Below are positions 3,001-6,000 of a stretch of DNA of 64,000 bases, piece by piece (positions within the stretch are counted from its first letter, which is position 1; every line of letters starts with the position of its first letter). Position numbers: made by a program. Source of the stretch: an uncultured delta proteobacterium (GTDB taxonomy: Bacteria; Desulfobacterota; Binatia; Binatales; Binataceae); the NCBI GenBank assembly GCA_963782535.1, contig CAWAKE010000003.1:310001-374000 (forward strand), given 5' to 3'.

Positions 3001-6000
3001 CAAATTCAGCGGATTTTCGCCTTGTTACGGCGTGGGCGCGCTGATAGGATTCCCTTCTTGCTCCTTGCTCCCATTAAGGGGGCTGGTACCCGGAAGGAGG
3101 GCAGCGCATGAGGCGCTACGAAACTATTTTCATTCTTCGCCCGGATTTGGGCGAATCCGCACAGAAAGTCGCGATAAAGCGTTTCGAAGGTATCGTTGGC
3201 TCCACCGGCGGCGACCTGGTCGAGACTGAGGAATGGGGCTTTCGCGAGCTTGCCTACCGAATCAAGGGCGAGCGGCGCGGCTTCTACGTCAGGCTGGACT
3301 ACGGCGGTGACGGTGCGACCATGAACGAAGTCGAGCGCAATCTGAAACTCTCCGACGGCGTATTGCGCTACCTTTCGGTGCTGGTCGACGAATCCGCCGA
3401 CATGGACACGGTCCGCAGCGAAATTGAAGCGCGGCACAAGCGCGCCGCGGAAGCCAAGGCGGCGACCGAGGCCCGCATGGCTGCATATGCCGCCGAACGC
3501 GCCGCCGCTGCGGAGGCTGCGGCCGAGGCCCAGGCCGCCAAGGATTGCGCAGCGGCCGAGTCGTCTTCGGAGTCCGCCGTGCAGGCGGCTCCGCAGACCG
3601 AAGGCGCGGCCGAATCGAGCGAATCGGCGCAAACCGCGGCCGAGCCCGCGCGTGCATCGGCCGAACCGGTGCAATCCGCAACCCCGGCCGAGGGCTCGAC
3701 CGAGCCGGAAAGTGGCAGTCAGGGTTGAGCTGTGCGGCCGCCTTGCAAATGCTCCGTCGCTACGCGTAACGCCGGCCGGAACCGCGGTGTTGAGCGTGGT
3801 CGTCGATTGTGGAGAGAAGGCGGGCGAACTGCTGATGCCGGTAGTGATGGCGGGAGAGCCTGCGCGTGTGACTGCGGCGCGGCTCAGCCAGGGCCTTGCA
3901 GTAAGTGCTCGCGGCGCGCTGCGACCGGCGCCCGGACACAATCGCACGGGCGCGGGGCGTCCCGGAGTCGAAGTCTTGGCCGACGAGATTACGCTTGCGG
4001 ATGCGCGCAATTGAAACGCGAAGCCGCCAGCGAATCAGGGCATGAACGAACCATAGCGGCTGCCGTGGCCAGCGGGACGACATCCCGGCGGGCCGCGCTT
4101 GCGATCAGGGAAATGAACAATGGCTGATGAAGTGAGAAGAGAACATGGTCCGGGCGATGCGCATGAGCATCCCCGCGGCGGTCGCGGTGAAGGCGGCGGA
4201 CGGCCCGGCGAACGTGGCGGCGGCGGGCGTCGCCGGCCCGGTGGCGGACGCCGCAAGGTTTGCCGCTTTTGCGCCGACAAGACGCTGGCAGTCGACTACA
4301 AAGACGTGCGCACCCTGCAGAGCTTTGTGACCGAGGGCGGCAAGATTGTTCCGAGCCGTACGTCGGGCAACTGCGCCAGACATCAGCGCCAACTCGCGAT
4401 TGCGATAAAACGTGCACGCGTGATTGCGCTGCTGCCGTTCTCGACTATGGGGATCTAAAGTCCGAACGTGACTCGCAGAGACGCAATCGGGCTGGTTCGC
4501 GCCTCCTTTGGCGCGGCCGCTCTCTTTCTGGCCGGCGGCGTAGTGCCGATGGTCGGCGGAGTCGCGATGCTGTTCGCGCCCACGCCCGTGCTCGCCTATG
4601 CGATCGGCCAACCCCGCGCGCTGTGGCGAATGGTCGCGGTGGTGGCGTTGGCGGTAGCCCTGATTACGCTCGGAGCGGGATTGTCGGCCGGCGGTGCCTA
4701 CTTGCTGACGCTTGGCCTCGCGACGGTCATGATGGTCTATCTGATCGAACGGCGGCGTCCGTTTGAAACTATCGTGTTGTGCAGCGCCGCCGCGATGTTG
4801 CTGGCGGGCGTGGCGGTGGCGTTGGCGGCTTCCGGGTCGCCCGGCGCGCTGGCCGAAGCGATGCGCCACGATCTGACCCTGGCGCTAGCTCGCGGCGAGA
4901 AATTTTACAAGTCCGTCGGGATTCAATCGACGATGCCGTCCGATACCCGCGTGAGTATCGTCGAGTTGACGCTGCGGCTGAGTCCGGCTCTGGCGGCGAT
5001 GGTTGCCGCGTTCACCGTGCTGATCAATCTTGGTCTGTTCTGGCGCCTGGGCGGCCGCCAGCAGCGGATCGGCTATATGCTGTTCAACGATCTGGCGCGG
5101 TGGTCCACGCCCGATTGGTTGATTTGGGTGCTGCTCACCGCCGGATTCGGATTGTTCATCCCGGTCGCGGCGCTCAGCACGATTGCACTGGATTTGTTCG
5201 TCTGTGTGGCAGCGGTTTACTTCTGCCAGGGGCTGGCGATCATGGCCTTTTACTTCAAGGCCCTGGCGATGCCGCCGCTCGCACGTGGACTCATTTACTT
5301 TGTTACGATTGTGCAGCCGGTGCTCGCGGTGCTGGTCTGCGCTGTCGGGATCTTCGATCTCTGGATCGATTTCCGGCGGCTTAAGCCGCCCAGCCAGGAG
5401 GCGCGCAATTTAGGCGACTTTTTATGAGCTGGGCTCAATAAGGCAGGCGCTTCTATGAATGTCCAAGTGATTTTGAGCGAAGAGGTCACCGACCTCGGAA
5501 GGCCCGGCGACGTGGTCAAGGTGCGGGCCGGCTATGCTCGCAACTATCTGCTGCCGCGCAAGCTCGCGGTCGAAGCCAACCCCAAAAACCTGCGCGCCTT
5601 CGAGCATGCCAAGAGCGTGGCGATGCTCAAGCGCGAGGCGCTGAAGCAGAAGGCGGGCGCTCTCAAAGAGCAGATCGAGGCACTGATGCTCGCGATCGAG
5701 GCCCGCGCCGGCGAGGAGGGCAAGCTGTTCGGTTCGGTAACCAATATCGACATCGAGCGGGCATTGCGCGAGCGCGGCTTCACGGTCGATCGACGCCGAA
5801 TTGCGCTAGCCGAGCCGATTAAGCAACTCGGTGACTTTACCGTTACCGTTAAACTCGAATCGGAAGTCGAAGCTCACTTGAAGGTCAACGTGACCGCAGT
5901 CGGAGAATGAGGCCCTGACGCGAAATGATGAAGCTCTACGACTTCTTGCCCTGTCCCTTCGGCCAAAAGGTTCGCATTATGCTGGCCGAAAAGGGGCTAT

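What a model noticed while it worked through the whole genome (the two positions that open the first line are those of the whole stretch)
3712..4014. Hidden PriB-like gene in the rpsF-rpsR operon of Binatia
A mis-called GTG-start ORF of 100 codons overlaps the rpsF stop and encodes a tail-less OB-fold SSB paralog, while the tailed ssb lies elsewhere. It is a PriB-type replication-restart factor in the same operon slot as in E. coli, outside Proteobacteria, probably from an independent ssb-to-priB conversion. PriA restart partners in this phylum were unknown.
Evidence so far: Best NCBIfam hit PriB_gamma E 8e-7, below cut-off. Truncated call alone hits 26 of 41 family genomes; GTG start and rpsF-X-rpsR order conserved; same slot filled in families f2 and f8, separate tailed ssb elsewhere. 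Model pLDDT 85, OB fold. priA present, dnaT/priC/dnaC not found.
(Added by a program. Inside this text positions count along the whole contig: contig position 310,001 is position 1 of the stretch shown here. "Call 12" and the like, gene names such as g00115 and contig names such as C1 are that model's own, and its searches are not shown. The text may have been shortened before it was handed on; [...] marks where a part breaks off. The agent that wrote the report below was given it as the finding of a first reader that could run no searches.)

Follow-up and report, generated by a model that had tools for sequence, protein, structure and literature searches.

The report
SSB copy remodelled toward PriB form

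Summary
The gene is real. It is a 100-codon GTG ORF (3712-4014) overlapping the rpsF stop, intact in 45 of 57 family loci and under purifying selection (dN/dS 0.16-0.38). It descends from the ssb copy that sits in the rpsF-rpsR slot; the main tailed SSB lies elsewhere. Like PriB, it has lost the acidic tail, all four stacking aromatics and the SSB tetramer face (intact in 0 of 64 family rows, 0 of 30 PriB-clade rows, 32 of 36 main SSBs), so a dimer is predicted. It is not a member of the beta/gamma PriB family: 29 bits against a cut-off of 72, the PriA-docking loop is 8 residues shorter, and His33, Arg44 and His93 are absent. No direct evidence of PriA binding was obtained. Fold searches cannot separate PriB from SSB. 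Independent origin is likely but unproven: three trees place it beside PriB without firm support. Tail-less slot copies also occur in nine families outside the class, so the erosion is phylum-wide. JGI already labels 16 of 39 homologs PriB. Verdict: PriB-like variant, restart role about 50%.

The parts
3712..4014 (+). Slot gene X: 100-aa tail-less OB-fold SSB paralog, GTG start, predicted PriB-like dimer
3712..3728 (+). 17-nt overlap of X with the rpsF 3' end; the rpsF stop TGA (3726-3728) is written by X codons 5-6; inferred translational coupling from a weak start codon
   Evidence: 41 of 47 family loci
3787..4014 (+). Truncated 75-aa database call of X (P0002), lacking the first strand and the TPAG hairpin
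3108..3728 (+). rpsF (S6) with a long Ala/Glu-rich C-terminal extension
4120..4458 (+). rpsR (S18), 105 nt downstream of the X stop
4468..5427 (+). DUF2232 membrane protein
5455..5910 (+). rplI (L9)

Best explanation
The gene is the old ssb copy of the rpsF-rpsR operon, stripped of its tail, stacking aromatics and tetramer face, and it likely works as a low-abundance, PriB-like homodimer that would help PriA restart replication forks. Shown: an intact conserved gene, an OB fold, slot ancestry, a separate main SSB, and loss of the three SSB hallmarks. Inferred: dimer state (from the residues at the tetramer face), weak electrostatic ssDNA binding through Arg18 and the basic L45 loop, and low expression from a GTG start coupled to rpsF termination. 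Inferred by analogy only: partnership with PriA. If it binds PriA, it must use a contact different from that of E. coli, because the Glu39/Arg44 loop is cut back. With dnaT, priC and dnaC not found and dciA present, the pathway would be PriA-X-DciA-DnaB, nearest to the DnaT-less Neisseria case.
For: Slot and division of labour: where the slot SSB keeps a full DIPF tail it is the only SSB found (10 of 10 genomes). Where the slot copy is short-tailed or tail-less, a separate high-scoring SSB exists (35 of 37; the two misses are 74% and 65% complete). Tetramer face (E. coli SSB I9, Y78, K7-E80) is SSB-like in 32 of 36 main SSBs, 10 of 10 sole slot SSBs and 3 of 3 short-tailed Binatia slot SSBs. 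It is SSB-like in 0 of 11 family loci, 0 of 53 family proteins, 0 of 7 of family f112 and 0 of 30 PriB-clade rows. The window protein has R4/R67 where KpSSB has a K8-E81 bridge and KpPriB has the repelling R4/R75 pair (PMC8509808 Table 2). Position Y78 is Arg in 30 of 53 family proteins, and Y78R makes E. coli SSB a dimer (PMC6101547). Stacking aromatics average 0.0 of 4 in the family, 0.0 in gamma PriB and 3.8 in main SSBs. dN/dS 0.16-0.38 matches non-enteric PriB-clade pairs (0.15-0.29, 4 pairs) and not main SSBs (0.02-0.07, 4 pairs). Trees place X next to PriB and reject a recent duplication of the host's main ssb (p-AU 0.019). priA is intact.
Against: The L23 loop carrying PriB Glu39/Arg44, which contact PriA (PMC10175261), has 7 residues in 11 of 11 family loci against 14-15 in 30 of 30 PriB-clade rows; His26, His33, Arg44, His81 and His93 are absent. 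Of 21 PriB-conserved residues the family keeps about 9, close to SSBs (8) and below PriB-clade groups (12-19.5). The gene is lost from 9 of 56 scorable family loci and from most families of the class with no matching change in dciA (73 of 80 genomes positive regardless). A PriA hairpin motif that seemed to track X failed a prospective test (2 of 8). Loss of tail, aromatics and tetramer face could follow relaxed selection or any other accessory role. Foldseek ranks SSBs first and PriB at rank 39 onward; VIA Z is 14.9 for SSB and 14.1 for PriB, a tie.
Confidence: 0.5

Rival explanations
1. X is a dimeric nucleic-acid-binding accessory with a job other than PriA restart, for example an RNA chaperone or ribosome-assembly helper co-expressed with S6 and S18, or a partner of another repair protein. 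It would have converged on the PriB shape because tail, aromatics and tetramer face are what any non-coating SSB copy sheds.
For: The PriA-docking loop and the PriB signature histidines are missing. The family has its own conserved set (Glu6 in 52 of 53, Cys33 in 49 of 53). PMC8509808 notes that PriB binds RNA and ssDNA comparably and speculates on an RNA role. No co-loss with dciA.
Against: No alternative partner was identified. The only characterised protein with this slot, ancestry and set of losses is PriB. Neisseria PriB shows that the PriA pocket can be remodelled (PMC2811003).
Confidence: 0.3
2. X is a leftover copy on its way out, kept by weak selection and by its overlap with rpsF, with little or no function.
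For: The slot is empty in 69 of 92 scorable class loci and in 98 of 116 scorable loci outside the class. There are repeated losses inside the family and 2 broken copies, and remnant-like gaps in two f20 genomes. dN/dS is several times that of its neighbours.
Against: Intact in 45 of 57 loci across 25 genera; the family diverges to about 30-40% identity with invariant fold residues. dN/dS stays below 0.4 in all 12 pairs, in the range of non-enteric PriB-clade genes. priB itself is dispensable in E. coli and patchy (PMC5778457).
Confidence: 0.13
3. X is an ordinary second tetrameric SSB of the SsbB type that coats ssDNA without recruiting partners.
For: Pfam SSB above cut-off; best PDB sequence and fold hits are SSBs, including SsbB. 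Eight of 15 other tail-less slot copies in the phylum do keep the tetramer face.
Against: In this family the tetramer face is SSB-like in 0 of 64 rows and no stacking aromatic remains.
Confidence: 0.07

Closest known systems
PriB of Beta- and Gammaproteobacteria (E. coli PriB, TIGR04418; Neisseria gonorrhoeae PriB)
   Same: Same operon slot (rpsF-X-rpsR), about 100 aa, OB fold, no acidic tail, no stacking aromatics, tetramer face lost, main ssb elsewhere, same slot-copy ancestry, patchy loss.
   Different: Below the family cut-off (29 of 72 bits); L23 loop 7 residues against 15; no His26, His33, Arg44, His81 or His93; conserved Glu6 and Cys33 instead; outside the PriB-clade branch in three trees (95-99 bootstrap, SH-aLRT 87-97); weak GTG start overlapping rpsF; PriA binding untested.
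Bacterial SSB in the rpsF-ssb-rpsR operon (B. subtilis SsbA type; tailed slot SSBs of families f10, f28, f30, f37, f58 here)
   Same: Slot, fold and sequence ancestry; RxTPxG hairpin and core glycines; Pfam PF00436 above cut-off.
   Different: No tail, no aromatics, no tetramer face; about ten times higher dN/dS than main SSBs; not the cell's only SSB.
Secondary SSB paralogs (B. subtilis and S. aureus SsbB, S. coelicolor SsbB)
   Same: Short second SSB beside a main SSB; among the top PDB hits.
   Different: That these are tetramers encoded outside the ribosomal operon is recalled, not checked here. S. aureus SsbB cannot stimulate PriA (title of PMC9084298, search listing only). X lacks the tetramer face and the aromatics.

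Membership tests
PriB (beta/gamma) | Score above the curated PriB_gamma cut-off | tested here: not met
   29.1 bits against 72; the model is gamma-specific
PriB (beta/gamma) | Gene between rpsF and rpsR with the main ssb elsewhere | tested here: met
PriB (beta/gamma) | Single OB fold of about 100 aa without acidic tail | tested here: met
PriB (beta/gamma) | Signature residues His33, Glu39, Arg44, His93 and 15-residue L23 loop | tested here: not met
   Cys33, loop of 7 residues, Arg44 deleted, Leu/Val at 93
PriB (beta/gamma) | Homodimer, not tetramer | tested here: inconclusive
   tetramer-face residues lost in 0 of 64 intact rows; sequence inference only, no measurement
PriB (beta/gamma) | Nested in the PriB clade | tested here: inconclusive
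   free trees put X outside the clade but beside it; grouping with beta/gamma PriB is not rejected, p-AU 0.25
PriB (beta/gamma) | Binds fork-loaded PriA and stimulates its helicase | not testable with these tools
   needs biochemistry
Canonical bacterial SSB | OB domain above the Pfam SSB cut-off | tested here: met
   30.9 against 26 bits
Canonical bacterial SSB | Acidic C-terminal tail (DIPF type) | tested here: not met
   the protein ends at the OB fold
Canonical bacterial SSB | Stacking aromatics W40, W54, F60, W88 | tested here: not met
   0 of 4 in all 64 family rows; 3.8 of 4 in main SSBs
Canonical bacterial SSB / SsbB type | Dimer-dimer face (I9, Y78, K7-E80) for the tetramer | tested here: not met
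   E6, S65, R4/R67 in the window protein; intact in 0 of 64 family rows

The most novel reading that the evidence does not exclude
PriB has been invented more than once. After an ancient ssb duplication, the copy left in the rpsF-rpsR slot has been remodelled in parallel in many lineages of this phylum, and living genomes show every stage: tailed sole SSB, short-tailed tetramer, tail-less tetramer, dimer, loss. The Binatia dimers are true PriA cofactors that dock through a new surface and hand the fork to DciA-DnaB without DnaT, PriC or DnaC.
Probability: 0.3. Interest if true: 0.72.

Novelty: new variant of a known kind. Interest (0 to 1): 0.5.

Why it matters
A review (PMC5778457, section 24) leaves open whether PriA works alone in most bacteria or has partners too diverged to recognise, and PMC8509808 states that PriB is found only in beta- and some gammaproteobacteria. 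A PriB-like cofactor in Binatia would name such a partner in a genome that has dciA and no detectable dnaT or priC, and it can be tested with three purified proteins. The graded series in the slot gives natural intermediates for the ssb-to-priB conversion that has so far been inferred only from its end points. If the PriA link fails, the result is still a corrected gene call and an account of what happens to the slot copy of ssb.

Tried and rejected
1) Complex prediction, PriA CRR (59 aa) with two X and zinc: no verdict, score 0.13 against a mark of 0.32; it says nothing either way. 2) PriA-side docking residues D438/S481/T482/H483 read L/G/Y/G in the window's genome, but the full set was present in 0 of 10 Pseudomonadota genomes that carry a PriB-clade slot gene, so the mismatch is uninformative. 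3) A post hoc PriA hairpin motif, H[LM]RxR, seemed to track X (12 of 13 against 1 of 18, read). It was found in only 2 of 8 new tail-less-slot genomes, both of one family already counted, so it is rejected as a kinship signal. 4) Co-loss with dciA, reported for priB in Vibrionaceae (PMC11087808): not seen, 73 of 80 genomes positive whatever the slot state; 4 of the 7 misses are 65-84% complete. 5) Fold searches do not separate PriB from SSB. 6) Recent duplication of the host's main ssb: rejected, p-AU 0.019. 7) Origin tests: Binatia slot genes as one clade p-AU 0.27 in one set and 0.048 in another with fewer rows; with 12 convergent columns dropped, the family's place is unresolved. 8) Transcription: soil RNA-library contigs 99% like the window cover 3775-4039 in two runs that look like one data set; small share, no silent control, so not counted. 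9) No Rfam family, including an S6:S18 leader, at the operon; the leader folds no better than shuffles (z -1.07); no sigma-70 match. 10) The ESM Atlas gave only SSB-type clusters. 11) Scan index: nothing by sequence or by words. 12) The script stopped with an error after printing the PriA references; its second half was not used.

Full report
Observation. The window holds rpsF (3108-3728), a 100-codon GTG ORF X (3712-4014), rpsR (4120-4458), a DUF2232 gene and rplI. X overlaps rpsF by 17 nt, and its codons 5-6 write the rpsF stop. It passes the Pfam SSB cut-off (30.9 against 26 bits) and has PriB_gamma as best NCBIfam hit far below cut-off (29.1 against 72). Databases carry a 75-aa call from GTG 3787; the full form is not in the collection. 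Of 39 homologs, 16 carry JGI's label 'primosomal replication protein N', 1 is called SSB of a Binataceae bacterium and 1 hypothetical. A profile search of 1.84 billion representatives returned 71 proteins at E up to 1e-10. Among the 150 best that I printed (output cut in the middle), the family came first and SSBs followed; I recognised no beta/gamma PriB. AlphaFold2 gives an OB fold at pLDDT 85.0. Foldseek ranks SSBs first and PriB from rank 39, all within about 20-fold in E-value; VIA-align gives Z 14.9 for the best SSB and 14.1 for Klebsiella PriB, a tie.

The gene is under selection. In 57 loci of the family (57 genomes) X was full length in 45, partial or broken in 2, absent in 9 from five genera, and one locus was cut. 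A GTG start was found in 38 of 47 and the stop overlap in 41 of 47. dN/dS was 0.16-0.38 in 12 pairs from families f1 and f112, against 0-0.22 for rpsF and rpsR in the same pairs. Benchmarks: main SSBs 0.02-0.07 (4 pairs), non-enteric PriB-clade genes 0.15-0.29 (4 pairs), enteric PriB median 0.11 (70 of 79 pairs). In family f112 the frame seems to open on CTG, ATA or GTG over or just after the rpsF stop (read by eye). Low translation in a highly expressed operon is my inference.

What else the genome has. Three tailed SSBs lie elsewhere: one on C4 and two divergent close copies on C2. priA is intact and dciA present. dnaT and priC were not found, and dnaC gave only E 0.002. The genome is 94% complete.

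The slot across the class and phylum. Of 94 class loci fetched from a 121-genome search, 92 were scorable and 23 had a gene in the slot. These were f1 11 of 13, f112 7 of 7, f6 3 of 6, f4 1 of 5 and f119 1 of 2; the other 14 families had none. The f6 copies are ordinary SSBs with a short tail, the f119 copy is SSB-like with an aberrant end, the f4 and f112 copies are tail-less, and f1 is the most diverged. Outside the class I read 120 loci, chosen by hand to spread over families and so not a random sample. Four were cut, 5 had a tailed SSB, 11 a tail-less OB gene in eight families, 2 a remnant-like gap and 98 nothing. Where the slot SSB has a full tail it was the only SSB found (10 of 10 genomes). 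Where it is short-tailed or tail-less, a separate high-scoring SSB was found in 35 of 37; tails were read only for those whose loci were returned. So the slot copy erodes once a relocated copy does the main job. PMC8509808 describes this history for PriB, citing its reference 40 (Ponomarev et al. 2003 by recall; I did not see that paper).

What X has become. Three SSB hallmarks are gone. First, the tail. Second, the stacking aromatics W40, W54, F60 and W88 (named in PMC8509808): 0 of 4 in all 11 family loci and 53 family proteins, 3.8 in main SSBs, 0.0 in gamma PriB. Third, the dimer-dimer face. PMC8509808 Table 2 lists a K8-E81 bridge in Klebsiella SSB that becomes a repelling R4/R75 pair in PriB; the window protein has R4 and R67 there. 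PMC6101547 reports that Y78R turns E. coli SSB into dimers; the family has Arg at that position in 30 of 53 and the window has Ser. I9, which I place on the same face by strand alternation, is Glu in 52 of 53. All three positions are SSB-like in 32 of 36 main SSBs, 10 of 10 sole slot SSBs, 3 of 3 f6 copies and 8 of 15 other tail-less copies. They are SSB-like in 0 of 11, 0 of 53, 0 of 7 (f112) and 0 of 30 PriB-clade rows. I chose these positions after seeing the alignment, guided by the two papers, and the family rows are kin, not independent. The prediction is a dimer that cannot wrap ssDNA as SSB does.

What X lacks of PriB. In the E. coli cryo-EM structure PriB His26, Glu39, Arg44 and His81 contact the PriA cysteine-rich region (PMC10175261), and Glu39 is called virtually invariant among PriBs (PMC2811003). 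In X the loop that carries Glu39 and Arg44 has 7 residues (11 of 11) against 14-15 in all 30 PriB-clade rows, and His26, His33, His81 and His93 are absent. X keeps about 9 of the 21 residues that PMC4129139 lists as conserved in PriB, mostly fold residues shared with SSB (8); Asp/Glu32 is the one PriB-like change. Calibration: 16 of the 30 PriB-clade rows come from a deep-branching Pseudomonadota group that the tool does not name. They sit in the slot and also lack His26 and Arg44, and their function is untested. The PriA-side residues are not conserved even among beta-type genomes. So X fails membership of the beta/gamma family, while 'works like PriB' stays open.

Origin. In three maximum-likelihood trees (98, 52 and 48 rows, 110 columns; thinned by hand, and the aberrant f119 row left out) f1, f112 and the Pseudomonadota PriB clade are each one group. 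The typical main SSBs of E. coli and this phylum form one well-supported group apart from all slot genes. The duplication is therefore old, and X and PriB descend from the same slot copy. X lies beside PriB with unstarred support (93/78), while other long tail-less branches do not join them. Dropping 12 convergent columns leaves f1 unresolved and f112 beside PriB at 86/81. AU tests: recent duplicate of the host's main ssb rejected (p 0.019); f1 with beta/gamma PriB not rejected (0.25); Binatia slot genes as one clade 0.27 and 0.048 in two sets. A PriA tree (39 rows, quick method) recovers the class (SH-aLRT 97), with f6+f119, f1 and the rest as three deep branches. It puts f112 weakly beside f4, whose slot copy keeps Ile at position 9, and nests the X-less f1 genomes among X-bearing ones. 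Since SSB-type slot copies survive inside the class, conversion within Binatia is the simpler history (about 65%); one origin with an old in-place transfer is the alternative.

Mechanism. Most likely (0.5) X is a low-copy dimer that binds lagging-strand ssDNA weakly through Arg18 (49 of 53) and a basic L45 loop, and stabilises fork-bound PriA through a remodelled contact, ahead of DciA-mediated DnaB loading. Neisseria gives a precedent for PriA and PriB without DnaT or PriC and with a remodelled pocket (PMC2811003). Every step past 'tail-less, aromatic-less OB protein in the priB slot' is inferred. Rivals: another accessory role (0.3), a fading relic (0.13), a tetrameric second SSB (0.07). Two gene-pattern tests for a PriA or DciA link came out negative.

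Novelty. Searches for PriB with Binatia and with Desulfobacterota found 0 papers, and four broader searches listed none on such proteins. The library lacks most subscription journals, and supplements were not read. The label PriB has been used outside Proteobacteria before: PMC4129139 tabulates a Thermoanaerobacter 'PriB' structure, and JGI's automatic names already say PriB. What is new is the corrected gene, the residue-level case for a dimer, the missing docking loop and the phylum-wide series of intermediates. Papers seen: PMC5778457 (passages, sections 10 and 24); PMC10175261 (abstract, sections 6, 9, 13); PMC8509808, PMC13377028, PMC2811003, PMC4129139, PMC6101547, PMC13594977 and PMC11087808 (passages); PMC9084298 (search listing).

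Verdict. Observation confirmed; interpretation partly supported. New variant of a known kind, interest 0.5.

Noticed in passing
L305, L315, L316, L344, L348, L349, L351, L364, L396, L409, L410, L016, L017, L024 (rpsF-rpsR gaps outside the class): Tail-less OB genes in the slot in nine families of the phylum; those of f9 and f65 are 88-92 aa and score near or below detection, so they are probably unannotated.
   Followed up: partly
L471-L475 (G001, G396, G243, G119, G085): PriA of families f9 and f65 lacks the Walker A motif and the DEEH motif but keeps the eight zinc cysteines, so it is likely ATPase-dead; the main SSBs of these genomes end in variant tails (for example IRM, VPL, IPI instead of IPF).
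   Followed up: partly
L285, L288-L302: A deep-branching Pseudomonadota group (class not named by the tool) has slot proteins that group with PriB yet keep the SSB-type KRW motif: possible intermediates that extend PriB beyond the beta and gamma groups.
   Followed up: partly
L043, L059, L070, L114-L117 (family f112): The slot gene seems to start on CTG, ATA or GTG overlapping or just after the rpsF stop.
   Followed up: partly
L345, L346 (family f20): 375-nt rpsF-rpsR gap without an intact OB gene, with a short stretch resembling the first strand: possible decayed slot gene.
   Followed up: no
L002, L003 (own genome C2, about 206-213 kb): Two extra tailed ssb genes 6 kb apart, close to each other in the tree; one lies beside an ORF that by recall resembles a plasmid RepB-type primase, suggesting an integrated element.
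   Followed up: no
window 3400-3728: rpsF has a 110-residue Ala/Glu-rich low-complexity tail; long S6 tails (148-206 aa in total) are typical of the family.
   Followed up: no
L523 (G650), L510 (G671): X is interrupted after about 24 codons in one genome and lacks its first strand in frame in another: pseudogenes or assembly errors.
   Followed up: no
window 42488-42562 (-): One tRNA gene, the only Rfam match at gathering threshold in the window.
   Followed up: no
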